Part shown: in pieces, positions 35,462-56,566 of the stretch
Numbering within the stretch: position 1 is the stretch's first letter
How the letters are laid out: the number at the start of each line of letters is the position of its first letter
IMG/VR virus record: IMGVR_UViG_3300035698_012959
Span: 3,404 to 67,403 of that record
DNA from: a virus
Length of the DNA stretch: 64,000 bases
Strand: one strand, 5' to 3'
Made by a program: the position numbers and the translations under genes
The notes under the pieces: model-generated
Databases searched by the model: none
What the model was told of the DNA's origin: nothing
Seen by the model: only the letters and a program-made list of their open reading frames with translations

Positions 35462-35970
35462 ATTACAATAAAAAACGATTACAAGAACTAGCTGGGATAG
35501 ACATACATGAAGGAAAACAAGTTGGCACGTTATATCATTTTACCAACTTTGAAGGTTTGAATGGGATATTATCTTCTAATTTATTGAAAGTGGGGGATGA
35601 TGCTAATTTTGAGACTGGAGGTAATATAGGAAATGTGTCATTAACTCGTGATAAAAATCTTTGGTATTTCTCCTTCCGTCTTGAATTAGATGGTGATAAA
35701 ATGTCCGATAAATACAAAATAACCCCATACCAGTGGAATGGGGGTGATCAAGAAGCAGAGGAGTATATTGAAAGAGATATATCTGATATAAGTTCATACT
35801 TACTAAGTATAACAGTTTGGGTTAATAACCCTGATGATACCATAAGTAAATCTATAATCAATCGTATAATTAAAATGTATCCTAATTTGGAATTCGTGTA
35901 TCAAGATTTTAGAGGAAAGGATTTCATCGAGTTTCCAAACCCCCAACCCACAAAATATAACATAAAATGA
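35458..35970 (+). CDS. Putative ADP-ribosyltransferase-fold protein with capsid-targeting-like leader
   Basis: RLQELAGIDIHE leader, then LYHFT...IL, VSLTRD, EAEE (H-S-E type pattern). Confidence 0.55.
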   Translation: MNYNKKRLQELAGIDIHEGKQVGTLYHFTNFEGLNGILSSNLLKVGDDANFETGGNIGNVSLTRDKNLWYFSFRLELDGDKMSDKYKITPYQWNGGDQEAEEYIERDISDISSYLLSITVWVNNPDDTISKSIINRIIKMYPNLEFVYQDFRGKDFIEFPNPQPTKYNIK

Positions 35971-36043
35971 AATAAAATAAACGAATTATAGCAATAACAT
36001 ATTTTAGGTATACTATGTAAACTCCAAGACTTATAAGTAAAAG

Positions 36044-36059
36044 TTTCTTTGTATATTAA
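36044..36059 (+). promoter_or_regulatory. Putative promoter motif TTTC-N4-TATATTAA
   Basis: Upstream of AAA ATPase gene; nearly the same as 44204-44219. Confidence 0.45.
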
Positions 36060-36097
36060 AATAATTAAAAAGTATTTTTACATATAAATATTAAGTT

Positions 36098-37264
36098 ATG
36101 CTATCAAACAACAATTCATCAGTAAACATTGATGAGTTAAAAATCGTTTTAAAACATCTAGTAACGAACAACCAATTCCTCCAATCCAGTGGTAAAATAC
36201 CTAAAGCTATTGAAGTAGTTGGTGAATCAGGTATTGGTAAAACCAGTGCTATGCTGCAATTAGGGAAAGAATTAAATTTACCTATAGTAAAAATTAATTT
36301 AACTCAAATTGAAGAATTAGGAGATTTAGTTGGATTCCCTGTCAAAGAATCCCAAATGGTGAAGGGAGAAGATGATGTTTGGATTGAAGAAAGTTACATA
36401 CAGCATTACTTAAATGATGGTTATGTACCTAGCAACAACAAACGAATGGCTTATGCCCCACCATCTTGGATATCTAGTGCCATGGAAGGAGGAATATTAC
36501 TACTGGATGATTGGAATAGAGCTGATATGAGATTTATTCAAGCAGTAATGGAGTTAATAGACAGACAGTCATATATAAGTTGGTCTTTACCTAAAAACTG
36601 GCATATAATATTAACTGCTAATCCTGATGACAAAGGTTACATAGTAAATAGTATTGATCAAGCACAAAAAACAAGATTTATTTCACTTAACTTAAATTTT
36701 GATATTAATTGCTGGGCTGAGTGGGCCGAAAGTGAAGGTTTAGATAGTAGATGTATTAATTTCCTATTACTTCACCCTGAATTAATGGAAGGTGAAGTTA
36801 ATAGTAGAAGTGTTTCTATGTTTTTTGATTCTATATCATCCATTAAGGTATTTTCTGATGAATTGAATTTAATATCATTAATAGGAAATGGATGTGTTGG
36901 TGAAGAGTTTTCTACTTTGTTTACTTTATTTATTAATAATAAATTAGATAAAATAATATCACCTGAAAAAATATTATCATTAGATAAAGTACATGTTAAT
37001 GGCATACTTAAATCTATTATAGGATCAGGTGATGATTATAGAGCAGATTTATCATCTACTATTGCTTTAAGAATGATAAATTACATCAAGTATAACGATG
37101 TAGATAGTATGAATGTTATAGATAGATTAGTTTATATATTAGAAGATGATATATTTACTACTGATATAAGTTTTAATATAGTTAAAACTATATTTAATAA
37201 CGATAAGAAAAAATATAATAAAATGACACTTAATCCTTCATTAGTAAAATACATATTATCATGA
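36098..37264 (+). CDS. MoxR-like AAA+ ATPase
   Basis: GESGIGKT, GDLVGFP, ILLLDDWNRA, LTANP, KTRF. Confidence 0.9.
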   Translation: MLSNNNSSVNIDELKIVLKHLVTNNQFLQSSGKIPKAIEVVGESGIGKTSAMLQLGKELNLPIVKINLTQIEELGDLVGFPVKESQMVKGEDDVWIEESYIQHYLNDGYVPSNNKRMAYAPPSWISSAMEGGILLLDDWNRADMRFIQAVMELIDRQSYISWSLPKNWHIILTANPDDKGYIVNSIDQAQKTRFISLNLNFDINCWAEWAESEGLDSRCINFLLLHPELMEGEVNSRSVSMFFDSISSIKVFSDELNLISLIGNGCVGEEFSTLFTLFINNKLDKIISPEKILSLDKVHVNGILKSIIGSGDDYRADLSSTIALRMINYIKYNDVDSMNVIDRLVYILEDDIFTTDISFNIVKTIFNNDKKKYNKMTLNPSLVKYILS

Positions 37265-38298
37265 TATACTCTTCTCGAAAATTCTTTTCACCTACTACGC
37301 AATTTGGTGGTACATCCAAATATCGTAGCTATTACTCTAAACAAGTATTTATTGGCAAAAGTGAAATAGTGGATATCATCTCCACTATAGAAAATTGGAT
37401 ATCAAAAAACGAAGCTAATAAAGATATTATAGGTAATAAAAAAATATATACTGGTAAATACTGTGATATACCTAGATATGTTATCAAAGATTTTATTGAC
37501 GCTAATCATTACCACAGAACATCTAAAATTCATCATGCTGATAATATTATCTCCTCAAAAGCACCCTTTATGACCATGCTAAGAGAATTAAAAATATACG
37601 AGAAAAATAAACCAACAGACTATATTGCCATACCTGACACGAAAGATAATCAAGAATTGTTATGTGGGTTAATAGTGAATCATGAACCATATGTATCTTC
37701 AAAACATCAACATCATATATTATTACCTGTAGTCGAATCTAAACATTTCCCAGATTTAATTCCTGATAATTATCATGTATTTTATAATACCAACTTATTG
37801 GACATGTTTGATTTTGTATTACAAGATAAACATGTTATATTTGATGATGAATTTAATAATATAATAGTAGAAGATAATGATTTTGATGATATGTCTTTTG
37901 AAAATTTTGAATTAATATCTAATGTAATTACAAGCAATGATGCAGATAATATATCATTAGCCATTAATTTAATGAATAACTATAATGTTGCTAAAGATAC
38001 ATTTTATATATCTACTATACTGAATTTATACTATAATAATTTATTTCGTTTAAAAGATAGTAGTAAAACAGTTAAACCTTTGAATTCAAATATAAAATCA
38101 ATAACAAATTATCTCGACACCCAAGGAATAAATTACAAAGATAGTTGGTGTATATTTATGGAAAATATATTCCCATTAGTTGGTGATGATTTATTAGATA
38201 ATTATAATTTAATACTAAATAAACTCGTAGAGGATGAATTAAGACGTAAAGGTTTAAAAATCAATTTAAATAATATTCAATTAAAACATAAGTTATGA
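37261..38298 (+). CDS. Hypothetical protein, possible BRCT-like domain
   Basis: KKIY...IPR..IK...RTSKIHHADNII; lies between AAA and VWA genes. Confidence 0.6.
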   Translation: MIYSSRKFFSPTTQFGGTSKYRSYYSKQVFIGKSEIVDIISTIENWISKNEANKDIIGNKKIYTGKYCDIPRYVIKDFIDANHYHRTSKIHHADNIISSKAPFMTMLRELKIYEKNKPTDYIAIPDTKDNQELLCGLIVNHEPYVSSKHQHHILLPVVESKHFPDLIPDNYHVFYNTNLLDMFDFVLQDKHVIFDDEFNNIIVEDNDFDDMSFENFELISNVITSNDADNISLAINLMNNYNVAKDTFYISTILNLYYNNLFRLKDSSKTVKPLNSNIKSITNYLDTQGINYKDSWCIFMENIFPLVGDDLLDNYNLILNKLVEDELRRKGLKINLNNIQLKHKL

Positions 38299-39422
38299 AT
38301 AAAGACATACATAAGCATGTAAGATTATTACTAATTAAAGAACCACTGTATGGATTATTTCTAATATCATTAATAAAGAAAACCTCACCAATCATTGACA
38401 CCGCTTGTGTTGCCATAAATGGATTGAATACTGAATTAATAATAAATAATGATTATTGGGAAAGTTTAGATAATAAATCTAAATTAGGACTACTAAAACA
38501 TGAATTGTTACATATTGTATTTTTTCATTTATTGAATATGGATCAGTATAATGATAAAACATTATATAATGTAGCTTGTGATTTGGAAGTAAACCAATAT
38601 ATATCTGATGACTATAAAGGTGATAAATGGGAGGGTATAGAAATAGATGAGGGTTTGTTTAAAGCTATGAATCTGAAATTAAAAGCCGGAGCAAGGTATT
38701 ACTATGATAAATTATCTGAACAATGTGATAAAGATAGTAATTTCAAACGATTCATTAATGGTTTAAGACCTGGTCATTCATTGTGGGTAAATACCAAAGA
38801 ATTAACAAATAAAGAACTTATAAAAAGGCAAATTAAAGGTAAATTAATAGAGTGTAGTAAAGGAATAGCCACTACACCACTAGAACTTACAGAGTTAGTG
38901 AAGGAAGAATACACACCTACAGTAGTGGATTGGAAAAGTATACTAAGGTTATTTGGTTCTTCGTCTCATATTACTTACACTAAAAAAACAAGATATAAGA
39001 GTAGTAATAGATTTAAAGATTCACCTGGATTGAGAGTGATGAAAGAGAAAAAAGTATTAGTAGCAATTGATACCTCAGGTTCTATATCTAATAATGATTT
39101 TAAAGATTTCTTTAATGAATTAATTCATATTGATAAGCTGGGTGTTAAAATAACAATATTAGAGGCTGATGTAGTTATACATAATGAGTATAAATTTAGA
39201 AAAGATAAAATGCCTGAGTTTAAAGGTAGAGGTGGCACCAATTTTGATGATGTTATGAATTATTGTAATAAAAATTCAAACCAATATACCAATCTAATAT
39301 ATTTTACTGATGGAGTAGCTCCACCCCCCACAGTAAACATAAGACAACATATATTATGGGCTCATACGAATAATCAATCATTAAATGAAGATTTACCTGG
39401 AATGAAAATTAATATTAAATGA
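38295..39422 (+). CDS. Metallopeptidase-like + VWA protein (DUF2201-like)
   Basis: LLKHELLH, NVACDLEVNQ, AIDTSGSI, GRGGTNF, YFTDG. Confidence 0.9.
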   Translation: MNKDIHKHVRLLLIKEPLYGLFLISLIKKTSPIIDTACVAINGLNTELIINNDYWESLDNKSKLGLLKHELLHIVFFHLLNMDQYNDKTLYNVACDLEVNQYISDDYKGDKWEGIEIDEGLFKAMNLKLKAGARYYYDKLSEQCDKDSNFKRFINGLRPGHSLWVNTKELTNKELIKRQIKGKLIECSKGIATTPLELTELVKEEYTPTVVDWKSILRLFGSSSHITYTKKTRYKSSNRFKDSPGLRVMKEKKVLVAIDTSGSISNNDFKDFFNELIHIDKLGVKITILEADVVIHNEYKFRKDKMPEFKGRGGTNFDDVMNYCNKNSNQYTNLIYFTDGVAPPPTVNIRQHILWAHTNNQSLNEDLPGMKINIK

Positions 39423-39447
39423 AAATTAATATTAAATAAATTATTAT

Positions 39448-39456
39448 ATATTTATA
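39448..39456 (+). promoter_or_regulatory. Putative late promoter ATATTTATA
   Basis: Intergenic, before ORF 39484. Confidence 0.55.
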
Positions 39457-39483
39457 ATAAAAACAATACATAAATATAAAATA

Positions 39484-39927
39484 ATGAATTATAATTTAAA
39501 TGAAATGGCTCAGATTAGTGGTGAGTTAAAAGGAGCTATAGAAAGAGTAATAGAAGAAAATCCAGAAGAAAATGGATTAGTACTTAAAAAAATCATTAGA
39601 AAAGACAGTGGAGTACAATCTGCACTTGATGGTGATCAACTATATGATAATCAATTGAATAAATTCATAGCACTTCAGAAAGGTGAGCGTACACTATCTC
39701 AAAGAGGAAGAAAACCTGGTGAAGTGACATCTCAACTATCAATTATTAAATCCATTTTATCTAAATCATCTGAGGGGATAAGTGATTTCAGTGATGATGA
39801 AATAAAAATGGTTGATAAATTACATTCATTAGTTAATGGAGGTGAAAGTGTTGAAGAAAATGATTATAGCATTAACAGACTTCAAGAGTTAGCTGGGATC
39901 GAATCTAAAAAAAAACTTTGGAAGTAA
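39484..39927 (+). CDS. Hypothetical, putative internal head protein
   Basis: MNYNLNE|MA start, QRGRKP (AT-hook-like), C-terminal RLQELAGI. Confidence 0.7.
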   Translation: MNYNLNEMAQISGELKGAIERVIEENPEENGLVLKKIIRKDSGVQSALDGDQLYDNQLNKFIALQKGERTLSQRGRKPGEVTSQLSIIKSILSKSSEGISDFSDDEIKMVDKLHSLVNGGESVEENDYSINRLQELAGIESKKKLWK

Positions 39928-39934
39928 TAGATTA

Positions 39935-40153
39935 GTGGAGTTTGGGGGTATAAGTTCTAATAGTCCAATTGATAATTTATCCCATAAATCAAAAATATAT
40001 TTAGAAAATGAAACTGAAGGTTTCATAAATTCAATATTATTTGATTCTGATATGCTCCATAATGATAATGATATAGATTCACCTACACTAGAAGCTACGT
40101 CTTTATTGTATGTAGTGGAAGTGTTGACTAAAAGAATAACTCAATACAAATAA
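39935..40153 (+). CDS. Hypothetical; possibly frameshifted continuation of ORF 39484
   Basis: GTG start only; joins 39484 if the A9 run at 39907-39915 is A8. Confidence 0.5.
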   Translation: MEFGGISSNSPIDNLSHKSKIYLENETEGFINSILFDSDMLHNDNDIDSPTLEATSLLYVVEVLTKRITQYK

Positions 40154-40158
40154 AAAAC

Positions 40159-40755
40159 ATGAAATTAACAAAAATAATCAAAACTGTTCTCCAAGAGTAT
40201 AACCCACAACGAGAAAAAGAACGTGAATCTCCATCCCCCGAGGTACATCCTGATACAAAACCACTAGAACGTCCAACCAGAAGACGTACACTAACCCCTC
40301 CTACAGAAGCTCCACGCACTAAACCTAAAGCAGAAAATTTTGAAGACAAAATTTCTAGCAGATATTCTGACATGAAAGATAAAAGCAGAATGCAAGAATT
40401 AGCAGGTATGCCACGGGATGAAAGGGGTCAATTTGATGATGAGGAATACCGAGATGAAGAAGCAGATGAACGTAAATACTGGGGTGTCGGTGATGATGAT
40501 ATAATGGAAAATGAAGAATTCGAAGATAACTACTCACATCTAAGTGATACTGATATTATAGAGTGGGCTAATGATAATGATCTGGATTATGACTTAGATT
40601 TCGATGGTAATTTAATAGACAGGCAAGGAATATTAGATACTATATTAGGATTGACGGGGGAGTATGACGATGATGAATATGGTGATTATGAAGAAGACCC
40701 ATTTATGGATGATTTTGACCCGGCAGGAGGCAGAGGTTTGAGCTCTTACATCTAA
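40159..40755 (+). CDS. Acidic low-complexity putative internal head protein
   Basis: MKLTKIIKTVLQE leader, Pro/Arg block, RMQELAGM, Asp/Glu-rich tail. Confidence 0.7.
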   Translation: MKLTKIIKTVLQEYNPQREKERESPSPEVHPDTKPLERPTRRRTLTPPTEAPRTKPKAENFEDKISSRYSDMKDKSRMQELAGMPRDERGQFDDEEYRDEEADERKYWGVGDDDIMENEEFEDNYSHLSDTDIIEWANDNDLDYDLDFDGNLIDRQGILDTILGLTGEYDDDEYGDYEEDPFMDDFDPAGGRGLSSYI

Positions 40756-40797
40756 AAAATGATTAAATTATGAAAATATTAAAACAAAAATAAACTA

Positions 40798-42219
40798 ATG
40801 AAATATAAAGATATATTTTCAGATCAAACACTAGCCAAATTAAATAGACAATCAGCCGATAATTTAAAAAAAGTACTCAAAGGTAAAACGTTAATGCAGT
40901 CAATGCATGGTGCTCACGGGGTGTTACAACAAATAATACAAATTGAGAGGCCCCACTTAGAAGAACTAGAAATATTAGCCCAAAATATTTTAAGGGGAAT
41001 ATATCCTATCATTGAGGATAATGATATAACACTAGATGTTCAAATTACCGACGATGTTTCTATAAACGAAATAAAATTAAATAAACGTGTAGATTTTACG
41101 GTAGAATATTGGTATAGATATAGAGGAGAAAAAGAAACTGATACTATCACAGTAAAAGCGACAGATGAAAAAGACGCTATCAAAATAGCTAAAAAACAAG
41201 CTCCCAAAAACTCAATCCCTAGTAGTTTTTCAATTTCAAAATCATTAAATGAATCTAATGATGAAACAACAAGAAGAGTAATAAACGGCATAACACAAGG
41301 AGCGGCATTAAGGAACACGTTTGCATTCTATATGTTTAAGGAACATTTAGATAAAATAGACCCAACATTAGTAGATAAATATAAAGCATTAATGGATGAT
41401 GTATTTGGTATTTATGATGATGATAATGCTATTGCAATGTTTTTAGCAGCTATATCAACAGGTCAAGAAACAGGAGGGGGGTATAGTAAAGTTACTATAA
41501 ATGAAATAAAATTACGTGAACCTGGTAATATAATCGAAAAGTTAAAATACCATTATGGTAAATTTAATGCTATTTTTAGTAAAAATATAAGGAAATTATA
41601 CCAGCTCGAAGATGATTTTATGACTATAGTTGCCCAACACGTTCCTTCATATTCTGAATATGGACTATCGTGGGACGCCGATGGGTATGGAGATGGGATA
41701 TTTGAGGAAGATAACTTTATAAGGGAATTAGAGGTATTATATGTAGAGTTAGAAGCTGAATATAATAAAATTAATAATTTAGATGATTTGAATGAAGATG
41801 ACTCATCATCTGGGGGTGTTACTATAACAGCAAGAGGAGTTTGTTTTCCTATATTATTACATGAAATGATTAAGGGATTATACGAATTAATATCATTACA
41901 TGGTTTTAAAGGTGACAAAGAACAAAATCAACAAGTTGTTGATAAAGTAGATAAGTTAGAAAATGAGCCTGAAGATTTAAGGTACGGAAAGTACATATAC
42001 GATGCTATAAACACATTATATATAAATAGTGATTATGATGATCCAAGAATGAGAGAATATTTCCTTCAAGAGATATATGGGTTAGATAATGATGTGTTTT
42101 TTGAGTTTGTGGATAATTTAATTAATGAGATATTAGATAGTAAACAAAAGGAATGGATCGCTAGGACTTTTAAAGAAATTTTCTTAGATTTACGAAATGA
42201 TAATATTGACAATTTATAA
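40798..42219 (+). CDS. Putative head protein carrying two xNE-flanked inserted cassettes
   Basis: Core RRVINGITQGAA ... FPILLHEMIKG; inserts 41071-41253 and 41506-41796. Confidence 0.7.
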   Translation: MKYKDIFSDQTLAKLNRQSADNLKKVLKGKTLMQSMHGAHGVLQQIIQIERPHLEELEILAQNILRGIYPIIEDNDITLDVQITDDVSINEIKLNKRVDFTVEYWYRYRGEKETDTITVKATDEKDAIKIAKKQAPKNSIPSSFSISKSLNESNDETTRRVINGITQGAALRNTFAFYMFKEHLDKIDPTLVDKYKALMDDVFGIYDDDNAIAMFLAAISTGQETGGGYSKVTINEIKLREPGNIIEKLKYHYGKFNAIFSKNIRKLYQLEDDFMTIVAQHVPSYSEYGLSWDADGYGDGIFEEDNFIRELEVLYVELEAEYNKINNLDDLNEDDSSSGGVTITARGVCFPILLHEMIKGLYELISLHGFKGDKEQNQQVVDKVDKLENEPEDLRYGKYIYDAINTLYINSDYDDPRMREYFLQEIYGLDNDVFFEFVDNLINEILDSKQKEWIARTFKEIFLDLRNDNIDNL

Positions 42220-44199
42220 ATGAAAAAATATCTTTTACTAGAATACACAGACAAAACTGTAAATGCTATATTAAAACAATGGAAAGAAGATACCCCCAAT
42301 CTTAATACAGAATCTGCCTTAAGTTTAATACAAAATTTTGAAAGAATCAAAAGTGGTCTTAAAGACCATTTAGAAACATATAGTTTTCCTGATAAACCTG
42401 GTTTCTTGGATACAAACAGGCAACCATTTACTGATATATTCAAATATACAGCTTCTGAAGTAGCTACTCTTATAAGATCTATACCTGAAAGTAAGAAGAA
42501 AATAATAAAAGCAGCAGCAAAAAGATTTAAGCAAAAATTTCATACTGAACATGGCGCCGCTATATCTTATATAAGTCGATTTCTTGCTAATAAAGCTAAA
42601 ATCGAAATGGGGTTTGAGAAAGGTTTAGAAAGGGATGGTTTTAGTAAAGAAGCATTTTTGGAATACATACCTAATAATTTATATAGGAATGGTATGTATT
42701 TAGATCCTAGATATTGGGATTGGAATGATTTTGAAACATTACTTGATGCTGTTTTTCCTGAAGTTGAAGAGGAGGAAGAAGGAGCTGCTGAAGATGGAGA
42801 AAATCTAGCTATGTTGAATGGTGATTTGATATATGATAAAAATAATTTAGAAATATATAGTGTTAGTGATGTTGAAAAATGCATTAAGTACAAACCAGTA
42901 GTTTCAGGTGATAATCCTATTAATTGGTGTATATCAGCTAAAGGTAACACTCAATATGATTATAGAAGACTAAATGATGAAGCTCCAACATTCTTTATGG
43001 TAGCTGATAGAGATCAGGATTCTAGTCTAGGTAAAGATAGATTTGAGAATCCGTTTCACGCTTGGGTATTACAAGTAACTAATAAGGAAACATATTTAAT
43101 AACAAATGCTGATAATCGTAGAGATTTACGAGTAGATAGTTGGGAGGAAATAAATACAGTAGTAGATCCAAGAACATGGAATAAAATAAAAGGTTTAAAA
43201 GATGTATTTAAACACAAGCCTTTGGATGATATTGAATTATTCAGGAAAATGTATGCAAATAAACCATTAACTTTAGGTGATTTTAAAGCACTAGATATAG
43301 ATAATAAAAAGTTATATATACTCGCTAAAGGAGGGAAAAATGAAATCCCCGAACCAATATTAAGAATACTTCCTTTAATAAAAGTCAAGGAAGATGGAAG
43401 ATCTACAAATGCTGCTGAATTAGCTATGAAAACTGGACAAATGTTTACATGGGAATTATTACAAGATTCCCCAAAACTAGCTGAAAGGTATACTGTTATT
43501 AGATTTAGACATGGTACAGGTAATGGAAAGTTAGTTCCATTAAAATTCGTTCAATACCTTGATGATAGTGGTAAAACAGAATATATTAAACTATTTGAAG
43601 ATTATATAAGTTGTAAATATATTGAGGAGTATTTCGGGGAAAAACATTTATTAGAATACATCAACAATAAAGCCAAGAATTTAGAATTTGTTGAGAGTGG
43701 TTATACCCATCTTATAAAAAACCCAAAACTAAGACAAATACAGGAAGCAGTTTCTGAGTTATCTAGAAATTGGTATACATCTAAATCTTTTGATATGTCA
43801 CGTGAAAAATTAGAACAATTAACATTACCACCAGAACTAGTGTGGTTTGATGAAAAGTACCTTTATGATGACTTTATGAAGTTAGATAGTAAAACTATCA
43901 ATGATATAATATCTGTATCTGAATTTACAGCTAGAGATATCAAAAAATATAATGAATTTAATTACATGGTTCCCTTACTAATTAAAGATGGTAAAGGTAG
44001 CTACAATTTCTTATTGCCAAAACCATCTAAAAGTTATTATCATGATGATTGGATATTAGTAGATAAAAATAAAAAAACAGTACAAGATAATATAAATGGT
44101 AATACATCAACATTTAATAATACCCAATTATCTTCTGGTTATAAACCAGGTGAGGTAAGGATTTTAGAACCTAAAAATTTAAAGTTAGTAGAAAAATAA
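42220..44199 (+). CDS. Large hypothetical protein with WCIS motif, putative head/ejection protein
   Basis: MKKYLLLE leader; NWCISAKG..YDY.R (PcfJ-like pattern). Confidence 0.65.
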   Translation: MKKYLLLEYTDKTVNAILKQWKEDTPNLNTESALSLIQNFERIKSGLKDHLETYSFPDKPGFLDTNRQPFTDIFKYTASEVATLIRSIPESKKKIIKAAAKRFKQKFHTEHGAAISYISRFLANKAKIEMGFEKGLERDGFSKEAFLEYIPNNLYRNGMYLDPRYWDWNDFETLLDAVFPEVEEEEEGAAEDGENLAMLNGDLIYDKNNLEIYSVSDVEKCIKYKPVVSGDNPINWCISAKGNTQYDYRRLNDEAPTFFMVADRDQDSSLGKDRFENPFHAWVLQVTNKETYLITNADNRRDLRVDSWEEINTVVDPRTWNKIKGLKDVFKHKPLDDIELFRKMYANKPLTLGDFKALDIDNKKLYILAKGGKNEIPEPILRILPLIKVKEDGRSTNAAELAMKTGQMFTWELLQDSPKLAERYTVIRFRHGTGNGKLVPLKFVQYLDDSGKTEYIKLFEDYISCKYIEEYFGEKHLLEYINNKAKNLEFVESGYTHLIKNPKLRQIQEAVSELSRNWYTSKSFDMSREKLEQLTLPPELVWFDEKYLYDDFMKLDSKTINDIISVSEFTARDIKKYNEFNYMVPLLIKDGKGSYNFLLPKPSKSYYHDDWILVDKNKKTVQDNINGNTSTFNNTQLSSGYKPGEVRILEPKNLKLVEK

Positions 44200-49213: not shown

Positions 49214-49221
49214 ATATTTAT
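49214..49221 (+). promoter_or_regulatory. Putative late promoter ATATTTAT
   Basis: Before portal gene. Confidence 0.5.
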
Positions 49222-49239
49222 CAATAAAAAATATATTAA

Positions 49240-51135
49240 ATGGCTGTTGACACTAGTATTTTTGGGCAGTTGAAACGTTTGTTTTCAACTGATGTTATAA
49301 TTCGTAATGTAGGGGGTAATAAGTTAAAGGTTGTTGATACTGAACGTATTCAGTCTTATGGAAATGTCAAGACAAATTCATTAGTAGACAGATATAACAG
49401 AATTCATATGGGTAGTAATAGGAATGCCTATACCCCAACAATGAATTACCAAACCTTAAGAAATCAATTATATACTGATTATGAAGGGATGGATCAAGAC
49501 CCTATTTTAGCTTCTGCATTAGATATAATAGCGGATGAATGTACATTAAAAAATGAGCAAGGTGAAATTTTAGCAATAAATTCACCTAATGAAAATATAC
49601 AGCAAGTATTATATAATTTATTTTATGATGTTTTAAATATCGAATTTAATTTATGGTCTTGGATTAGAACTATGTGTAAGTATGGTGATGCTTATCTTTA
49701 CATGGAGATAGCAGAGAAGTTTGGTATAATAAATGTATTACCAGTATCAAGTTATGATGTCATAAGACAAGAAGGGCAAGATCCAGAACGACCATCATAT
49801 GTATCATTTAAAGTTGGTGAAGATGGCTCTAGATATGCTTTAGGTTATGCCGGAGGTATAAATAGAGATATAGAAAATTATGAAATGGCCCATTTCAGAT
49901 TATTATCTGATTATAACTACCTTCCTTATGGCCGTTCATACATGGAACCCGCACGTAAAGTATTTAAGCAACTTTCATTAATGGAAGATGCTATGCTAGT
50001 TCATAGAGTAATGAGAGCTCCAGAAAAAAGGATTTATTACGTAGATGTAGGTTCTATACCTCCAAACGAAGTAGATGCTTACATGGAGAAAATAAAAAAT
50101 AATATTAAAAAAACTCCATATATTGATCCAGAAACTGGAGATTATAACCTCAAATATAACATGCAAAGTGTTAATGAGGATTTTTATATACCTAGAAGGG
50201 GAAATAATGATGGTGGTACACAAATTGATACTTTAAAAGGATTAGAATATAATGCCATCGAAGATGTTGAGTATCTAAGAGATAAAATGTTGTCATCATT
50301 AAAAATCCCAAAAGCATTTTTTGGTTATGAAAAAGATCTAGAAGGAAAAGCAACTTTAGCCGCCGAAGATATTAGATTCGCTAGAACAATTGAGAGAATA
50401 CAAAGAATTGTAACAAGTGAATTACATAAAATAGCATTAGTTCATTTATACACACAAGGATTTGATGATGAGCAATTAGTTGATTTTGAACTAACACTAC
50501 ATTCTCCTTCCATCATATATGAACAAGAAAAAGTAGCATTATTAAAAGAAAAGACCGCATTAGCCATTGACATGGTTGATTCTAATTTATTCCCATCTGA
50601 TTGGGTATATGATAATGTATTTAACTTAAGTGAAGATAAATTAAATAGTTTAAGACAATTAGTTGTCGAGGATAAAAAACGTTCTTTCAGATTAAACCAA
50701 TTAGAAAATGAAGGTAACGATCCAGCGGCAAGTGGTACATCATACGGTACACCCCATGACTTAGCCGCGCTTTATGGTAGAGGGAGAATGGCTAAAGGTG
50801 ATGTTCCTTCAGGATATGACGAAAAAGAAACTGCAGGTAGGCCTAAAGAAAGAGCTTCTTCATATGATACCCAAAACTCTAACTTAGGTAAAGATGTAAT
50901 GGGAAGCGATGCTTTAGGAGATAAAATCCCCCATTCCATAAAAACATCTTACAAAGGTAAAACCCCATTATCTATAAGTGAAGGAAAACATATTTATCAT
51001 AGAGATGTAGATATATATAACAATGATACTGATGAATCGGAAGATTTTGAAGAAGAAGATATTTATGATGATGGAGATATTGATGAAAATTATGAGTCTG
51101 CGTTACTGAATGAATCCATGATAATTAAAGAATGA
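49240..51135 (+). CDS. Portal protein (T4 gp20-like)
   Basis: ALDIIADE, LMEDAMLVHRVMRAPEKRIYYVDVG, EDFYIPRR, IDTLKG, LKIPK, EDIRF. Confidence 0.96.
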   Translation: MAVDTSIFGQLKRLFSTDVIIRNVGGNKLKVVDTERIQSYGNVKTNSLVDRYNRIHMGSNRNAYTPTMNYQTLRNQLYTDYEGMDQDPILASALDIIADECTLKNEQGEILAINSPNENIQQVLYNLFYDVLNIEFNLWSWIRTMCKYGDAYLYMEIAEKFGIINVLPVSSYDVIRQEGQDPERPSYVSFKVGEDGSRYALGYAGGINRDIENYEMAHFRLLSDYNYLPYGRSYMEPARKVFKQLSLMEDAMLVHRVMRAPEKRIYYVDVGSIPPNEVDAYMEKIKNNIKKTPYIDPETGDYNLKYNMQSVNEDFYIPRRGNNDGGTQIDTLKGLEYNAIEDVEYLRDKMLSSLKIPKAFFGYEKDLEGKATLAAEDIRFARTIERIQRIVTSELHKIALVHLYTQGFDDEQLVDFELTLHSPSIIYEQEKVALLKEKTALAIDMVDSNLFPSDWVYDNVFNLSEDKLNSLRQLVVEDKKRSFRLNQLENEGNDPAASGTSYGTPHDLAALYGRGRMAKGDVPSGYDEKETAGRPKERASSYDTQNSNLGKDVMGSDALGDKIPHSIKTSYKGKTPLSISEGKHIYHRDVDIYNNDTDESEDFEEEDIYDDGDIDENYESALLNESMIIKE

Positions 51136-51980: not shown

Positions 51981-53137
51981 AAAGGTCTCAACTTAGTGAA
52001 TTGATAAATGGGAAATTGAAAGAAATGAATGCCACTTCGGGTGGGGAAGCTTATGCTCCCCCTCTAGGTAAAAAAGTGGATGAAATTAAATTAAGAGAAC
52101 CAGGTGCTTCACATATAATTCGTGATCCGCATAGAATATCAACTTTACCTAAACTTAATTTAACAATAGGAAAGTATAATGTTTCTAAAGACAAAGTTGG
52201 ATTACAGGTACCTTTTGGTACTGTAACTAAAATGACATTAAACAGAGCTAGAAACGTATTTGACAAATTAGGTATTACTATTGAAAAAGCATTTTTAGGT
52301 TGGTTGGTAAGATCACATGAATATACGAATGATGATGGGGAAGTGAAAAAAAATTTCTATGTAAATATACGTACAACTTATTTATTATCTACTTACAAAA
52401 ATAAACCTGTAATGTTTGTTCAAAATCAAACTTCATCTAATCTAGCAGGGCAGGCATATTTGTATAGTGAATATTTTAAATCCGGTAAATCATTAAGATT
52501 AAAACCAGACAATCCACCAAAAATCCACACACACCATAGCGGGGCCTCAACTAGTAAGTACCAATGGCAAGATAGTAGTGATGTAAAAGCAGATGATGCC
52601 ACCACAAGTAAAGAAATGATTTTAAGAGCATTAAAATACGATCAATTAAGTGAAGTTAAATTAAGAGAACCTGGAGTGTTAGCTAGTTACAAAGAAGAAG
52701 CAATAGCTGATTTAACAGATTTAAAACAATCATATTTTGACGTTAACGATAATGACGACAATTATAATAAAGCCGTAAGTTACATACGAGGTGCAAAGGA
52801 TGAAATGGAATTAAGTCGAAGATTGGAAAGAGTATTTAAAGACCCAAGTGTTTTAGATGATATTAAATATAGAATAAATAATGACGGTGGTACATTAAAT
52901 GAAATATCTACTCGCAAATTTAACAAACGAATATCAAGAGTAAGTCCATTAAGTAAAGTTAATAGATCTATTAGTGAAATTAGTAAAAGATTAAAAGAAA
53001 TTAATTCAGTGATAGGACACACTTCAAAATTAATGAATGAATCTGGGAGTGGTAATAGTAGAACTAAAGAAAAAATTGCTAAATTATTAGTCGATATCAC
53101 AAACACAAGAACTAATTTAAGAAATTTAATGAAATGA
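51977..53137 (+). CDS. Putative head protein carrying two tandem E|[IV]KLREPG cassettes
   Basis: MKRSQL leader, cassettes 52085-52654 and 52655-52903, basic coiled-coil C-terminus. Confidence 0.7.
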   Translation: MKRSQLSELINGKLKEMNATSGGEAYAPPLGKKVDEIKLREPGASHIIRDPHRISTLPKLNLTIGKYNVSKDKVGLQVPFGTVTKMTLNRARNVFDKLGITIEKAFLGWLVRSHEYTNDDGEVKKNFYVNIRTTYLLSTYKNKPVMFVQNQTSSNLAGQAYLYSEYFKSGKSLRLKPDNPPKIHTHHSGASTSKYQWQDSSDVKADDATTSKEMILRALKYDQLSEVKLREPGVLASYKEEAIADLTDLKQSYFDVNDNDDNYNKAVSYIRGAKDEMELSRRLERVFKDPSVLDDIKYRINNDGGTLNEISTRKFNKRISRVSPLSKVNRSISEISKRLKEINSVIGHTSKLMNESGSGNSRTKEKIAKLLVDITNTRTNLRNLMK

Positions 53138-53757
53138 TAAAACTATCAAATATATTAAAAGAAATCAGATTAAGAGAACCCAAAAATCATGCTTATGTGT
53201 CTATGGATGATGTAAAACTAGGTATGGAATTTCTAATACATGATATGGAAAATTACTTATCTAATTCTAAAAATGATTTCACAGAAATACCACCTGATGA
53301 AATGGGGTATGTTATTATTAATGAATTTTATGATTTGATAGTGTTCCATATTAAAGAACATTTAAAAAATAACGATAATGAGATTTATTTCGATATAGAA
53401 AGTAATAAAGATATTTATGAGTATCTAACAAATATTGAAGGTAGTGATATAATACAAATTATTATAGATGAATTAATTGTTCCTGCGGGATATAAATTAA
53501 TAACACCACAAAACACTAAATATTTTATAGGAAGTTTTATAGATCGAAATAAATCTACTGGAACCGAATTCATCAATCAAACTCACATTAGTGATCCAAG
53601 TTTATGGAAAGAATATATAAAAGATGGAAATGGATTCGATGATTTTTTAGATTTAATTGATTTTAATATAGATAAAATAATTAATGGCCTTAATGAAGGA
53701 GATATAAATAGTATTTTAGTAAATGAATTGGGATTACCAGTAGAAGAATTTAATTAA
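53134..53757 (+). CDS. Hypothetical, putative internal head protein
   Basis: MIKLSNILKE|IRLREPK. Confidence 0.7.
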   Translation: MIKLSNILKEIRLREPKNHAYVSMDDVKLGMEFLIHDMENYLSNSKNDFTEIPPDEMGYVIINEFYDLIVFHIKEHLKNNDNEIYFDIESNKDIYEYLTNIEGSDIIQIIIDELIVPAGYKLITPQNTKYFIGSFIDRNKSTGTEFINQTHISDPSLWKEYIKDGNGFDDFLDLIDFNIDKIINGLNEGDINSILVNELGLPVEEFN

Positions 53758-53764
53758 ATAAAAA

Positions 53765-54607: not shown

Positions 54608-54619
54608 TAAAATAGAACA

Positions 54620-55249
54620 ATGAAACAACTATTAGTAGATACTATATTATTTGAAGTAGAACCAAGCGTTATTAATGAAAATATTAAAAATGGTGGTACA
54701 TTAACTGTTAAAGGTCCAATACAAAAAGCGGAGACTAAAAACGGTAATGGTCGGGTATACTCTAGAGAAATATTAAATAGAGAATTCAAAAAATATAACG
54801 AAGGTCCCATTAAAGAAAGTAGATCAACAGGTGAGTTGGATCACCCCGATTCACCTGTTATTAACTTAAAGAATGTATCACATATCATACGTAATATATG
54901 GTGGGATGGTGATACTGTTATGGGGGAAATAGAAGTATTAACTACACCTTCAGGTAATATATTAAAAGAATTAATTAAATGTGGGGTAAAAGTAGGAGTA
55001 TCATCTCGAGGTATGGGTTCTGTTAAACAAATAGGTGAAACCGTTGAAGTACAAGAAGATTTTGAACTATTATGTATTGATTTTGTCTCAACACCTTCCA
55101 CTCCGGGAGCTTACATGGATTCCATAAATGAATCATTAAATTTATCAACACCTCCTGTAGAATCATTATATACTAATATTGATAATTTAATAACCGAAAT
55201 ATTGTGTAATCGCATAGGATATTGTCCTTGCGATTTACCTACTAATTAA
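54620..55249 (+). CDS. Prohead core protease (T4 gp21-like)
   Basis: NGNGRVY, GELDHP, NVSH, GVSSRGMGS, DFVSTPS. Confidence 0.95.
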   Translation: MKQLLVDTILFEVEPSVINENIKNGGTLTVKGPIQKAETKNGNGRVYSREILNREFKKYNEGPIKESRSTGELDHPDSPVINLKNVSHIIRNIWWDGDTVMGEIEVLTTPSGNILKELIKCGVKVGVSSRGMGSVKQIGETVEVQEDFELLCIDFVSTPSTPGAYMDSINESLNLSTPPVESLYTNIDNLITEILCNRIGYCPCDLPTN

Positions 55250-55294
55250 ATATAAACATCAGGATATTATTCTTCGTTTTGATTGTTTTGGTTC

Positions 55295-55409
55295 ATATGT
55301 ATCGCCGATTTACGATATGTTATCTCTAATATAACATTTAAAATAATTATTTTTCAATTTTTACATTGGACTTTTATATGCATCTGAGTATATATAATAA
55401 TAAGTCTCC
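55295..55409 (+). promoter_or_regulatory. Late-promoter variant (ATATGTAT) plus structured leader of the scaffold/capsid operon
   Basis: Hairpin ATGTTAT/ATAACAT 55317-55337 and imperfect stem 55368-55409. Confidence 0.4.
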
Positions 55410-55441
55410 AAACTCTACGTAAAGAACAATAACAAAAAAAC

Positions 55442-56566
55442 ATGATAAAAAAGAAAAACAAAACTAATGATCTTTTAAAAGAAGCAATTGCTGACGCTCA
55501 AAGAATCAAACAAACAGCATTAGAAAATGCTAAAATGGTAATAGAAGAAAGCCTATCACCAAAAATCAAAAAAATCCTTTCAGAAAAACTGAATGAGATG
55601 GCAGATGATGATCTTGATGAAGGTATGTATGATTCCGATGAAGATTTAGACATTGATGAAATTCTTAGAGAATTAGAAGAAGATGATCTTAATGAAAATG
55701 AAGATTTAGACGAAGCCGCTGGTGATGATGAAGATAAACCAAAGCCAAAAGCAAAACCTAAAACTGACGATAAACCAAAACCAAAACCAAAGGCCAAGCC
55801 GAAATCAGAAGATGATGACGATGATGACGAGGATGATGATGAAGGATTCGGTGATGATGACGATGATGATCTAGGTGTTGAAGATGATATGTCTGACGGT
55901 GATGGTGATTTAGGTGGTGAAGAGCAAGACGTTAAAGATATGAGTGCATCTGAATTATCAGAGTTAATTACATCAATTATACAAGGTGTAATGGGGACCG
56001 GTGAGGAAGATGGATTAGGTGGAAGTGATATTGGACCTATTGGAGCCGAAGATGGATTAGATTCAGGTAGGGATGATATTGGATTTGGTGATGATATGGA
56101 AGGTGAAGAAGACGATATTGACATTAGTGAAGATGAGTATGGAATTGAAGAAGACGAAGATGATATGGTTTACGAATCATTGAAACAAATTAATAAATTA
56201 CGTGAAGAGTTAAAAGAAACTAATTTATTAAATTCTAAATTACTATACATGAATAAGGTGTTTGCAGGTCAACAATTAAATGAGCAAGAAAAGATTGGTG
56301 TGATGAAAGCATTTGATAAAGCTGATTCAGTAAAGGAAGCAAAATTAATCTTTGAAACTATTCAAACTAGACCAAAAAGAAAAGAAACAGCAAATTCTAG
56401 AAATAGAAAAACAAAGTATAGAAGCACAGCAGGAAAAAGACAGATTAGAGAAGTTAAAGGCAGTGCTTCAAGCGTATTAGGTGGAAGTATGAGAAAACCA
56501 ATCGTTAAAGTTAACGAAACAGTTGCCAGATGGCAGAAATTGGCAGGATTAGATACATCAAAATAA
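55442..56566 (+). CDS. Prohead scaffold/core protein
   Basis: Between protease and capsid genes; LLKEAIADA, highly acidic middle, LLNSKLLY, C-terminal RWQKLAGL. Confidence 0.85.
   Translation: MIKKKNKTNDLLKEAIADAQRIKQTALENAKMVIEESLSPKIKKILSEKLNEMADDDLDEGMYDSDEDLDIDEILRELEEDDLNENEDLDEAAGDDEDKPKPKAKPKTDDKPKPKPKAKPKSEDDDDDDEDDDEGFGDDDDDDLGVEDDMSDGDGDLGGEEQDVKDMSASELSELITSIIQGVMGTGEEDGLGGSDIGPIGAEDGLDSGRDDIGFGDDMEGEEDDIDISEDEYGIEEDEDDMVYESLKQINKLREELKETNLLNSKLLYMNKVFAGQQLNEQEKIGVMKAFDKADSVKEAKLIFETIQTRPKRKETANSRNRKTKYRSTAGKRQIREVKGSASSVLGGSMRKPIVKVNETVARWQKLAGLDTSK

What the first reader, a model, noticed from the sequence alone, without database searches (positions are those of the whole stretch)
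35476..56551. Accessory proteins mimic the scaffold C-terminal motif R-x-Q-x-L-A-G
Seen: scaffold ends RWQKLAGL (56528-56551); RLQELAGI occurs at the N-terminus of ORF 35458 (35476-35499) and near the end of ORF 39484 (39877-39900); RMQELAGM lies mid ORF 40159 (40387-40410). Established: in P22 and herpesviruses the scaffold C-terminal helix binds the coat protein. Inference: a position-independent coat-binding address used by passengers to enter the procapsid.
Basis: partly seen in the sequence, partly recalled or inferred. Interest (0 to 1): 0.78.

Follow-up and report, generated by a model that had tools for sequence, protein, structure and literature searches.

The report
Scaffold-tail address tag on phage cargo
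In this uncultured T4-related water phage, three small proteins carry a copy of the short peptide that ends the head-scaffolding protein. Relatives put the same peptide, followed by head-protease cut sites, in front of over a thousand unrelated small proteins, so it is probably a clip-off label for loading cargo into the capsid, though no experiment has tested this.

Summary
R-x-Q-x-L-A-G occurs exactly 4 times in six frames, all in + strand ORFs at the stated places. About 0.003 are expected, and the codons differ synonymously.

The window is a Far-T4-type phage with a gp23-like capsid protein, a gp21-like S77 protease and a gp22-like scaffold. The motif is the conserved extreme C-terminus of that scaffold: 120 of 120 listed homologues, plus four named phages (immuto, Mel-JY01, LR756508, RM378).

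Relatives carry a roughly 25-residue N-terminal leader made of the same core followed by I-[TN]-E and L-N-E. That leader heads 1222 protein clusters. A profile built from leaders alone retrieves scaffold C-termini.

Two window families show address swapping:
- 31 of 32 homologues of ORF 35458 carry a different Glu-ended leader.
- 2 of 5 homologues of ORF 39484 lack the C-terminal tail and carry another N-terminal leader.

Best reading (about 0.7): a prohead-entry address copied from the scaffold tail and released by the protease, a new variant of T4's capsid targeting sequence. That the partner is the capsid protein is inferred, not shown. No Far-T4 virion data exist. The only bench anchor is a distant jumbo-phage virion protein, CBB_213, which has two looser R-M-x-x-L-A-G copies.

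This scan's earlier notes report the same scaffold-tail leader on other DNA. No hit for these motif strings was found in the paper library.

The parts
55442..56566 (+). gp22-like head scaffolding protein (374 aa, long acidic middle)
   Evidence: It lies between the S77 protease and the Gp23 capsid gene. The family has 1998 members. Homologues are in immuto, Mel-JY01 and LR756508.
56528..56551 (+). Scaffold C-terminal tail RWQKLAGL (residues 363-370), 4 residues before the stop
   Evidence: 120 of 120 listed homologues end in R-[WMFL]-[QK]-K-L-A-G-[IL] plus 0-4 residues; R363, K366, L367, A368, G369 invariant in 38 sequences; Mel-JY01, LR756508, RM378 tails.
35458..35511 (+). N-terminal leader of ORF 35458: MNYNKK-RLQELAGI-DIHE, with the tag at 35476-35499 and a putative I-x-E cut after Glu18
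   Evidence: Glu18 invariant in 32 of 32; 31 of 32 homologues have a different leader, MIKLxD[IL]L..E, at the same place. models a helix at residues 3-12 and a low-confidence linker at 13-18.
35458..35970 (+). ORF 35458, 170 aa: candidate cargo with a possible ADP-ribosyltransferase-superfamily fold
   Evidence: Pfam Tox-ART-HYD1, E 8.3e-5, 23.6 bits, below the cut-off of 25. The AF2 model has pLDDT 71. The top Foldseek PDB match is tRNA 2'-phosphotransferase 7yw4, E 1.8e-3.
39484..39927 (+). ORF 39484, 147 aa, helical, unknown fold: candidate cargo or minor scaffold with a C-terminal tag
   Evidence: 3 of 5 family members end in a scaffold-like tail; the other 2 lack it and carry another N-terminal leader. 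No fold match.
39877..39900 (+). Tag copy RLQELAGI, residues 132-139 of 147
   Evidence: Leader-only profile E 1.1e-4 among 2113 ORFs.
40159..40755 (+). ORF 40159, 198 aa, Pro/basic then very acidic, probably disordered. It starts MKLTKIIKTVLQE, the second type of Glu-ended leader.
   Evidence: No relatives in 2.28 Mb of related loci. No Pfam or PHROG family.
40387..40410 (+). Tag copy RMQELAGM, residue 77 of 198. It would be near the N-terminus if the in-frame ATG five codons upstream of the motif's Arg is the start.
   Evidence: The profile match is weak (E 2.5e-2).
54620..55249 (+). gp21-like prohead protease (S77), the presumed enzyme that clips the tags
   Evidence: Pfam Peptidase_S77 1e-28, PHROG 207 4e-55, 34% identity to T4 gp21.
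56595..58190 (+). gp23-like major capsid protein, the candidate docking partner
   Evidence: Pfam Gp23 2.4e-71, 26% identity to T4 gp23, 41-sequence alignment A2.
56760..56774 (+). RLLNE, residues 56-60 of the capsid protein: putative maturation cut after Glu60
   Evidence: It aligns with T4 gp23 SFLTE|AEIGG. T4 loses 65 N-terminal residues (PMC9546572). Glu60 is invariant in 41 sequences.

Best explanation
The peptide R-[WMLF]-Q-x-L-A-G-[ILM] is the conserved last helix of the head scaffolding protein of Far-T4-type phages. Copies of it on other proteins act as an address. During prohead assembly the copy docks where the scaffold tail docks. That site is most likely the inner face or N-terminal arm of the gp23-like capsid protein, or else another core component, so the tagged protein is enclosed.

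The gp21-like protease then cuts at nearby [IL]-x-Glu sites: after the tag in N-terminal leaders, before it in C-terminal tails. This frees the cargo inside the head for delivery with the DNA.

Shown here: the shared peptide, its conservation, its modular spread on unrelated proteins, the flanking Glu-ended sites, and the presence of the T4-type protease and capsid protein.

Inferred: packaging, cutting, the docking partner and ejection.
For: 1. Scaffold tail. 120 of 120 listed scaffold homologues end in the motif. It is invariant in a 38-sequence alignment. It also ends the scaffolds of immuto, Mel-JY01, LR756508 and RM378, whose capsid proteins are 55-36% identical to the window's.

2. Mimicry beyond a 7-mer. 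An HMM built from 10 N-terminal leaders (no scaffold, none from the window) was searched against 2113 ORFs. It gave 56 hits at E<0.01: 11 training sequences or duplicates, 42 scaffold C-termini and 3 small tagged proteins, two of them window ORFs 39484 and 35458. There were no unrelated hits.

3. Modularity. A 7-sequence leader profile found 1222 clusters at E<=1e-3 among 1.84 billion representatives. In the best 150, 147 have the motif within the first 26 residues. Conservation ends sharply after L-N-E (Glu in 140 of 147 at +10 and in 136 of 147 at +15 from the Arg). The 115 bodies of 60 aa or more fall into 53 unrelated groups, and only 4 of 105 scanned have a Pfam family.

4. Same genomes. 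Ten long contigs were reached through the leader alone. Nine also encode a motif-ended scaffold, and each has 2-5 tagged proteins. All 41 pattern hits lie on one strand in each genome, with none on the other strand and none for the reversed-pattern control.

5. Address swapping in the window's own families. 31 of 32 homologues of ORF 35458 carry MIKLxD[IL]L..E instead, joined at the same invariant Glu. 3 of 5 members of the ORF 39484 family end in the tail; the other 2 lack it and start with MKK..L.EII..EI.

6. Protease logic. The S77 protease is 34% identical to T4 gp21. The capsid protein's RLLNE|A aligns with T4's maturation site.

7. Precedents read in papers. T4's 10-residue capsid targeting sequence loads unrelated proteins into the core, and the ADP-ribosyltransferase Alt is packaged and clipped at both ends (passages of PMC9026906 and PMC3012670). 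The 80alpha scaffold and SaPI1 CpmB share a C-terminal helix-and-hook that binds the capsid protein's N-arm (passages of PMC5644958).

8. Distant bench anchor. In Rak2-like jumbo phages the scaffold ends ..HLAGMTKK (EJP2) or ..RNAGISKNR (CBB). The acidic protein CBB_213 carries SRMLALAG and DRMSSLAG, and it was detected in purified virions (5 peptides, 18.9% coverage; Table 4 of PMC5259590).
Against: - No virion proteome, processing data or binding data exist for any Far-T4 tagged protein.
- The docking partner is unknown.
- The tag is dispensable for some relatives: a complete 166-kb genome (G001) has the motif only on its scaffold.
- The window's copies are short, diverged versions. Profile E-values among 2113 ORFs are only 1.1e-4, 1.8e-3 and 2.5e-2, and 5.5e-2 for the window's own scaffold tail.
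- The window's copies lack the canonical I-T-E-S-Q-L-N-E continuation.
- In the window's three accessory copies position 4 is Glu. [LM]-Q-E is therefore itself a possible protease site inside the tag.
- The three genes lie 15-20 kb from the head genes, among metabolic-type genes, and ORF 35458 overlaps an oxidoreductase gene.
- Ascertainment bias: the scaffold searches used words or patterns containing the motif, so '120 of 120' overstates independence. The four named phages found by capsid similarity are the unbiased sample.
- The Rak2-like motif is looser. CBB_213 is not homologous to ORF 40159.
Confidence: 0.7

Rival explanations
1. The tagged proteins are assembly modulators or minor scaffolds rather than passengers. 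By competing with the scaffold tail for its site they would tune head size, shape or scaffold exit, as SaPI1 CpmB does with the 80alpha scaffold.
For: ORF 39484 and two of its homologues carry the tag at the very C-terminus, as scaffolds do. CpmB binds the same capsid site through a shared C-terminal helix-and-hook (PMC5644958). ORF 40159 is acidic and disordered, like scaffolds.
Against: Most tags are N-terminal and followed by clip sites (147 of 150). They sit on at least 53 unrelated body types, one of them a nucleotidase family. ORF 35458 looks like an enzyme. Several tagged genes per genome fits cargo better than a regulator.
Confidence: 0.12
2. The motif is only a recognition or cleavage element for the prohead protease (L-Q-E cut), not a docking address.
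For: The window's three accessory copies read [LM]-Q-E, which fits the [IL]-x-Glu rule. The capsid protein's RLLNE aligns with T4's site.
Against: Position 4 is Lys in the window scaffold and in the 120 listed scaffolds. In 147 leaders it is K, Q, L, F or V in 131, and only 5 core strings have Glu there. The invariant residues (R, Q, L, A, G) are not part of the Glu-ended rule. Separate Glu-ended sites follow the motif at +10 and +15.
Confidence: 0.05
3. The shared helix binds a common partner that has nothing to do with capsid entry, for example a chaperone, the portal or terminase, a membrane assembly site or a host factor. The scaffold simply uses that partner too.
For: No binding data exist. 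T4 proheads assemble on the membrane with chaperone help (PMC9546572 passages). The window's tagged genes are not in the head module.
Against: The extreme C-terminus is the capsid-binding element in the scaffolds studied so far (80alpha; P22, phi29 and herpesvirus from recalled knowledge). The leaders end in sites like the capsid protein's own maturation site, and such sites only matter inside the prohead, where the protease acts.
Confidence: 0.1
4. Chance recurrence, or ordinary common descent of paralogous proteins.
For: The motif is short, and the pattern was defined after it was seen.
Against: Expected 0.003-0.004 against 4 observed. The reversed motif scored 0 against 77 in 923 kb. The protein bodies are unrelated. 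1222 clusters carry the leader.
Confidence: 0.01

Closest known systems
Phage T4 capsid targeting sequence (CTS) on internal proteins IPI-III, and the propeptides of Alt and gp24, removed by the gp21 protease
   Same: A short terminal peptide shared by unrelated proteins and ending in a Glu cut site, in a phage with gp21-, gp22- and gp23-type head genes. The cargo includes a possible ADP-ribosyltransferase-like enzyme, as Alt is in T4 (PMC9026906 and PMC3012670 passages).
   Different: The tag is about 25 residues, not 10. Its core is a copy of the scaffold's own C-terminal tail, whereas T4 gp22 ends ..VYAKVASRF with no such tail. It also occurs at C-termini and inside proteins, and it heads over a thousand protein clusters. 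Packaging and cutting are proven in T4 and untested here.
80alpha scaffolding protein and SaPI1 CpmB: shared C-terminal helix-and-hook (RIIK motif) that binds the capsid protein's N-arm
   Same: A second protein copies the last ~16 residues of the scaffold. Many tails here read ..R-M-Q-K-L-A-G-I-I-K, that is a helix followed by a short hydrophobic/basic hook.
   Different: CpmB comes from a satellite and redirects capsid size. Here the phage's own genes carry the copy, mostly at the N-terminus with clip sites, on many unrelated bodies. The structure and binding site are solved for 80alpha and unknown here.
Herpesvirus protease/scaffold nested genes and encapsulin cargo-loading peptides
   Same: A short terminal peptide that docks on the inside of an HK97-fold shell brings an enzyme or cargo into the particle.
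   Different: In herpesviruses the shared tail arises from nested reading frames of one gene. Encapsulin peptides are unrelated in sequence and are not clipped off by a maturation protease.
Rak2-like jumbo phage acidic virion protein (CBB_213 / EJP02_209)
   Same: An acidic, probably disordered protein with internal R-M-x-x-L-A-G helices, in phages whose scaffold ends ..LAGMTKK or ..NAGISKNR. It was detected in purified virions. Its make-up resembles window ORF 40159.
   Different: No detectable homology to ORF 40159. The motif lacks the Gln, and the scaffold tail is a looser match.

Membership tests
T4-type capsid targeting propeptide (CTS-like) | The same short terminal peptide on proteins that are otherwise unrelated | tested here: met
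   1222 clusters carry the leader. 115 bodies fall into 53 groups. In the window there are three unrelated ORFs plus the scaffold.
T4-type capsid targeting propeptide (CTS-like) | The peptide is bounded by a prohead-protease site ([IL]-x-Glu) | tested here: met
   By sequence only. Glu is at +10 in 140 of 147 and at +15 in 136 of 147 leaders. The window has IHE|G after the tag in ORF 35458, with that Glu invariant in 32 of 32. The capsid protein's RLLNE aligns with T4's site. Cutting itself was not measured.
T4-type capsid targeting propeptide (CTS-like) | The phage encodes a gp21-type protease, a gp22-type core and a gp23-type shell | tested here: met
   Pfam S77 1e-28 and Gp23 2.4e-71; BLASTP to T4 gp21 8e-22 and gp23 8e-30.
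T4-type capsid targeting propeptide (CTS-like) | Sequence likeness to T4's own 10-residue CTS | not tested
   T4's internal-protein genes were not fetched. T4 gp22 and gp24 termini show no R-x-Q-x-L-A-G.
T4-type capsid targeting propeptide (CTS-like) | Tag-dependent packaging into the head and removal of the tag | not testable with these tools
   This needs virion proteomics or reporter fusions in a cultured member.
Scaffold C-terminal capsid-binding element and its mimics (P22 gp8, 80alpha SP / CpmB) | A conserved element at the extreme C-terminus of the scaffolding protein | tested here: met
Scaffold C-terminal capsid-binding element and its mimics (P22 gp8, 80alpha SP / CpmB) | A second protein carries the same element | tested here: met
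Scaffold C-terminal capsid-binding element and its mimics (P22 gp8, 80alpha SP / CpmB) | The element is a helix followed by a hook | tested here: inconclusive
   The AF2 model of ORF 35458 puts residues 3-12 in a helix, but block pLDDT is about 50. The model of ORF 39484 has a helix at 128-136 with pLDDT in the 50s.
Scaffold C-terminal capsid-binding element and its mimics (P22 gp8, 80alpha SP / CpmB) | The element binds the capsid protein (N-arm / inner surface) | not testable with these tools
   No usable result was obtained here. This needs prohead cryo-EM or binding assays.
ADP-ribosyltransferase superfamily (for cargo ORF 35458) | A significant family or fold match and the catalytic residues | tested here: inconclusive
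   Pfam Tox-ART-HYD1 scores 23.6 bits, below the cut-off of 25. The top Foldseek match is Tpt1 7yw4, E 1.8e-3, TM 0.45/0.60. Invariant Y26-H27, S61-x-T63-R64 and E101-E102 are compatible but not diagnostic.

The most novel reading that the evidence does not exclude
Far-T4-type phages, abundant in fresh and sea water, may use one portable address, a copy of the scaffold's last helix, to load a very large and fast-changing repertoire of proteins into their capsids. Over a thousand clusters carry it, and almost all have no known family. The tag would occupy the same pocket on the capsid protein as the scaffold, so cargo partly replaces scaffold during assembly. It would then be clipped off and injected with the DNA.

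If so, these proteins form a large uncharted pool of first-minute host-takeover and anti-defence effectors. It would also be a natural phage counterpart of encapsulin cargo-loading peptides.
Probability: 0.4. Interest if true: 0.85.

Novelty: new variant of a known kind. Interest (0 to 1): 0.7.

Why it matters
How T4-type heads choose their internal proteins is understood only for T4's own 10-residue tag, and what that tag binds is still unknown. Here the tag is visibly a copy of the scaffold's tail. That gives a concrete, testable hypothesis for the docking step: cargo and scaffold share one site.

It also marks, by sequence alone, over a thousand families of small proteins of unknown function in abundant aquatic phages as candidate virion-delivered effectors.

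It suggests a short natural peptide for loading foreign proteins into phage capsids.

A cultured member exists in which all this can be tested: Flavobacterium phage immuto, with two tagged proteins.

Tried and rejected
- **Complex prediction.** The capsid protein (alignment A2) was folded with the scaffold tail, residues 325-374 (alignment A1). Result: no verdict (score 0.01; controls not run). It counts neither for nor against binding.
- **Related loci from the single scaffold protein.** The search used acidic low-complexity patterns and gave only 4 loci. I replaced it with the alignment-based search.
- **T4 comparison.** T4 gp22, gp21, gp67 and gp68 have no R-x-Q-x-L-A-G tail. The tail is therefore not a general T4 feature.
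- **Fold of ORF 39484.** The model has pLDDT 66, and no PDB match is better than E 0.65.
- **ORF 40159.** No relatives were found in 2.28 Mb of related loci. It has no homology to the jumbo-phage virion protein CBB_213. Its start codon could not be settled from the upstream DNA.
- **Late-promoter idea.** ATATTTATA lies upstream of ORF 39484 and of the terminase gene, among others. Its count (19) is not above shuffles (13.1, sd 3.8; 7 of 100 shuffles reach 19). GATATTTAT gives 9 against 5.0. Only the strand bias (15 to 4) is suggestive, so I do not use it as evidence.
- **Cargo functions.** Pfam named only 4 of 105 leader-bearing proteins, one family each.
- **Literature.** Motif strings were searched. 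The 6 papers found and the 10 listed of 45 were all irrelevant; the listed ones matched a dinosaur name. The Far-T4 paper PMC4360716 has no occurrence of 'gp22', 'prohead' or 'scaffold protein'. One search found nothing on Far-T4 propeptides. The supplements of the GAP32, Rak2 and phAPEC6 proteome papers, which I did not see, may bear on the jumbo-phage anchor.
- **** translated the wrong frame and was not used.
I resent it with the field added.

Full report
**What the window is**

The 64-kb window is most of a 67.4-kb, 29% G+C phage contig. Its head module is T4-like:
- a large terminase at 46448-49204;
- a portal-position ORF at 49240-51135;
- four ORFs of unknown family;
- a protease at 54620-55249 (Pfam Peptidase_S77 1e-28; PHROG head maturation protease 4e-55; 34% identical to T4 gp21);
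- an acidic 374-aa ORF at 55442-56566;
- a capsid protein at 56595-58190 (Pfam Gp23 2.4e-71; 26% identical to T4 gp23).

The nearest named phages by capsid protein are Flavobacterium phage immuto (54.7%), Microcystis phage Mel-JY01 (47.7%), the 484-kb metagenomic phage LR756508 (46.7%) and Rhodothermus phage RM378 (35.8%). RM378 is the reference for the 'Far-T4' group (PMC4360716, passages read), so I call this clade Far-T4-type.

**The observation**

R.Q.LAG occurs exactly four times in six frames. The expectation is 0.0027 from composition and 0.0039 from 20,000 shuffles of 68 ORFs. The four DNA copies use different synonymous codons for R, L, Q, A and G, so selection acts on the peptide.

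**The scaffold tail**

The acidic ORF is the scaffold by position and by family. A search with its C-terminal 140 residues found 1998 proteins at E<=1e-3. All 120 listed ones end in R-[WMFL]-[QK]-K-L-A-G-[IL] followed by 0-4 residues and the stop. In 38 full-length members R363, K366, L367, A368 and G369 are invariant.

These searches used words and patterns that include the motif, so they are biased. The unbiased sample is the four named phages reached through the capsid protein:
- immuto ends ..VSRWQKLAGIIK;
- Mel-JY01 ends ..VERMKKLAGIVK;
- LR756508 ends ..KSRMQKLADIS;
- RM378 ends ..LERIKRLAGL.

T4 gp22 has no such tail.

**Copies on other proteins in relatives**

Whole-record pattern scans found, besides the scaffold:
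- two small immuto proteins with the shared start MKKQILSEQF[RK]RMQ[KF]LAGIITES;
- three small ORFs in LR756508;
- three tandem 180-190-aa proteins in a 62-kb contig (G008), starting MAKQILNEQFRRMQ.LAGIITEEQLNE;
- single cases in other contigs.

A complete 166-kb genome (G001) had only the scaffold copy. In 84 scaffold-centred loci (923 kb) the motif R.[QK].LAG occurred 77 times, always on the scaffold's strand. The reversed motif occurred 0 times.

**Is it really the scaffold's tail that is copied?**

I built an HMM from 10 N-terminal leaders, with no scaffold and nothing from the window, and searched 2113 ORFs from all loci held at that point. At E<0.01 there were 56 hits:
- 11 were the training sequences or a duplicate.
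- 42 were scaffold C-termini. I recognised 34 by an internal scaffold word and 8 more by their length (334-457 aa) and tail position.
- 3 were small tagged proteins: a 160-aa ORF next to a scaffold, window ORF 39484 (E 1.1e-4) and window ORF 35458 (E 1.8e-3).

Nothing unrelated scored. Some alignments run over 13-20 residues. Window ORF 40159 (E 2.5e-2) and the window's own scaffold tail (E 5.5e-2) score weakly, so this phage has diverged versions of the tag.

**Breadth**

A 32-column profile of 7 leaders was searched against 1.84 billion representative proteins. It found 1222 at E<=1e-3 and 50 at E<=1e-10. Of the best 150:
- 147 have the motif starting within the first 26 residues, and 10 have more than one copy.
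- Anchored on the Arg, the consensus is M-[KA]-Q-[LQ]-I-N-E-x-[KR]-R-M-Q-x-L-A-G-[ILV]-I-[TN]-E-S-Q-L-N-E.
- R, Q, A and G are invariant in 147 of 147. Glu is at +10 in 140 and at +15 in 136. There is no conservation from +16 on.
- The 115 bodies of 60 aa or more form 53 single-linkage groups (one of 54 members, the rest of 6 or fewer).
- Pfam names only 4 of 105.

The reverse test started from loci found through the leader's upstream part, a pattern without L-A-G. I scanned ten long contigs, five of them complete 149-172-kb genomes with terminal repeats.
- All 41 pattern hits lie on one strand per genome, with 0 on the other strand and 0 for the reversed control.
- Nine of ten contigs hold a motif-ended scaffold. 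The tenth is a 61%-complete fragment.
- Each contig has 2-5 tagged proteins.
- One of the 41 hits is a chance match at the start of a 517-aa protein that looks like a chaperonin (my recollection, not tested).
- Two pairs of contigs (G014/G019 and G015/G018) share identical sequences and are probably the same phages, so about eight are independent.

**Address swapping in the window's own families**

ORF 35458 has 31 homologues. All keep the body and an invariant Glu18 followed by [GA]-K-Q-V-G. None has the scaffold-tail tag. Most instead start MIKLxD[IL]L..E (27 of the 31 begin MIKL or a shortened form of it), and the window protein alone starts MNYNKKRLQELAGIDIHE.

ORF 39484 has 4 homologues. 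Two end ..LNESFSRMQKLAGVIK, which is an L-N-E site followed by a scaffold-like tail. The other two lack the tail and start MKK..L.EII..EI.

This second, shorter Glu-ended leader also starts window ORFs 53134 (MIKLSNILKEIRLRE) and 40159 (MKLTKIIKTVLQE). It starts several small ORFs near capsid genes in relatives too. It resembles the 10-residue propeptide of T4 gp24, MAKINELLRE|S (10 residues removed according to PMC9546572). Two different peptides occupying the same slot in front of the same body is what interchangeable addresses would look like.

**Protease logic**

The capsid protein's RLLNE|ANVTG aligns with T4 gp23 SFLTE|AEIGG. T4 removes 65 N-terminal residues there (PMC9546572 passages). 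Glu60 is invariant in 41 clade members. The L-N-E that closes the leaders is thus the same kind of site as the shell protein's own maturation site.

In scaffolds a P-I-[VM]-E site usually lies about ten residues before the tail. The window scaffold has PIVK followed by VNE.

**The cargo in the window**

- *ORF 35458.* It gives a sub-threshold Pfam hit to an ADP-ribosyltransferase family (23.6 bits against a cut-off of 25). Its AF2 model (pLDDT 71) has one weak PDB match, tRNA 2'-phosphotransferase 7yw4, E 1.8e-3. The fold assignment is therefore inconclusive, but it recalls T4 Alt, a packaged ADP-ribosyltransferase clipped at both ends (PMC9026906 passages). In the model the tag is a separate helix (residues 3-12) joined by a low-confidence linker (13-18).
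- *ORF 39484.* It is helical with no fold match.
- *ORF 40159.* It is Pro/basic then acidic, with no relatives found.

**A distant bench anchor**

In Escherichia phage EJP2 (capsid protein 34% identical over two thirds of its length), the ORF before the capsid gene ends ..FLKEIEHLAGMTKK. Its homologues are annotated as scaffolding protein in several records. In phage CBB that ORF ends ..FLNEISRNAGISKNR.

An acidic protein (EJP02_209 / CBB_213 / BF gp209) carries SRMLALAG and [DG]RMS[ES]LAG. CBB_213 is listed among proteins found by ESI-MS/MS in CsCl-purified virions, with 5 unique peptides and 18.93% coverage (Table 4 in the main text of PMC5259590; locus tag checked).

So a protein with internal copies of a similar helix does reside in a virion. 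The motif there is looser, however, and the protein is not homologous to ORF 40159.

**Comparison with what is known**

- The system works like T4's capsid targeting sequence: a short peptide sufficient to load unrelated proteins into the core, later removed by gp21 (PMC9026906 and PMC3012670 passages).
- It differs in that the tag is a visible copy of the scaffold's C-terminal element. In that respect it resembles SaPI1 CpmB, which copies the C-terminal helix-and-hook of the 80alpha scaffold and binds the same site on the capsid protein's N-arm (PMC5644958 passages).
- The herpesvirus protease/scaffold pair and encapsulin loading peptides are further analogies, from recalled knowledge only.
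- Searches of the paper library for the motif strings found nothing relevant.
- Earlier notes of this scan describe the same scaffold-tail leader on other genomes. They are unchecked AI notes, and I use them only as leads.

**Verdict**

The reading 'address that brings passengers into the prohead' is well supported by comparative evidence but untested at the bench (confidence about 0.7). 'Coat-binding' is an inference from other scaffolds. 'Position-independent' is true only in a weak sense, since N-terminal leaders dominate. I class it as a new variant of a known kind.

Noticed in passing
window 41509-41523, 52088-52102, 52658-52672, 53170-53181: A second recurrent peptide, E-[IV]-[KR]-L-R-E-P-[GK], occurs four times, in ORFs 40798, 51977 (twice) and 53134. 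No copy was found in the ORFs of the 116 loci held at that point. L-R-E matches the Glu-ended protease rule and T4 gp24's LLRE|S, so these may be cut sites in core-like proteins. A cut before Pro would be unusual.
   Followed up: partly
window 53134-53178 and 40159-40197; homologues of ORF 35458 (A3): A second, shorter N-terminal leader, M(I)KLxx[IL][IL]xE, heads ORF 53134, ORF 40159, most homologues of ORF 35458 and about a dozen small ORFs near capsid genes in related loci. It looks like a T4-style 10-residue propeptide and seems interchangeable with the scaffold-tail tag.
   Followed up: partly
window 40798-42219 and 42220-44199; loci L215, L206: Homologues of these two adjacent, conserved ORFs carry the scaffold-tail tag in other genomes. 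In G014 the ORF 40798-like body runs on through ..GLDE-MKRMQKLAGIPVKEM.. into a further ~145-aa domain. In G015 the ORF 42220-like protein has ..EEFRRLQQLAGIITEM.. at residue 493. These could be polyproteins cut by the head protease, or merged gene calls.
   Followed up: partly
proteins P0159, P0161, P0166, P0173, P0182, P0225, P0230: 10 of the 150 best leader hits hold two copies of the tag. One 47-aa protein has two in tandem, and a 1005-aa protein has copies at residues 25 and 920.
   Followed up: no
window 46448-49204: The terminase large subunit is 918 aa, against about 525-530 aa in immuto and Mel-JY01. It contains a long insert bounded by ..ECFSGDT.. and ..VVHNCDC.., which reads like an intein. 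This comes from reading the translation and was not tested.
   Followed up: no
window 36098-39422: An AAA_5 ATPase (E 4.8e-5), an unknown 345-aa ORF and a DUF2201_N metallopeptidase plus VWA-like DUF2201 protein sit between the first and second tagged genes.
   Followed up: no
window 33670-35461: A YAcAr/SLOG-family protein (E 7e-15) and a pyridine-nucleotide-disulphide-oxidoreductase-like protein lie here. The stop codon of the latter overlaps the start of tagged ORF 35458.
   Followed up: no
window 3351, 16365, 30707, 33659, 39448, 46423, 58297 and others: ATATTTATA lies 20-35 bases upstream of several starts, including ORF 39484, the terminase gene and the gene after the capsid gene. It occurs 15 times on the + strand and 4 on the - strand. 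The total (19) is not above shuffles (13.1, sd 3.8).
   Followed up: partly
L248:1878-2852 (EJP2), L251:101-1030 (CBB_213), L250:301-1269 (BF gp209): An acidic virion protein of Rak2-like jumbo phages starts MK[NK][KQ]INEAS.., which resembles the first residues of the Far-T4 leader. It holds two R-M-x-x-L-A-G helices. CBB_213 was found in virions by mass spectrometry.
   Followed up: partly
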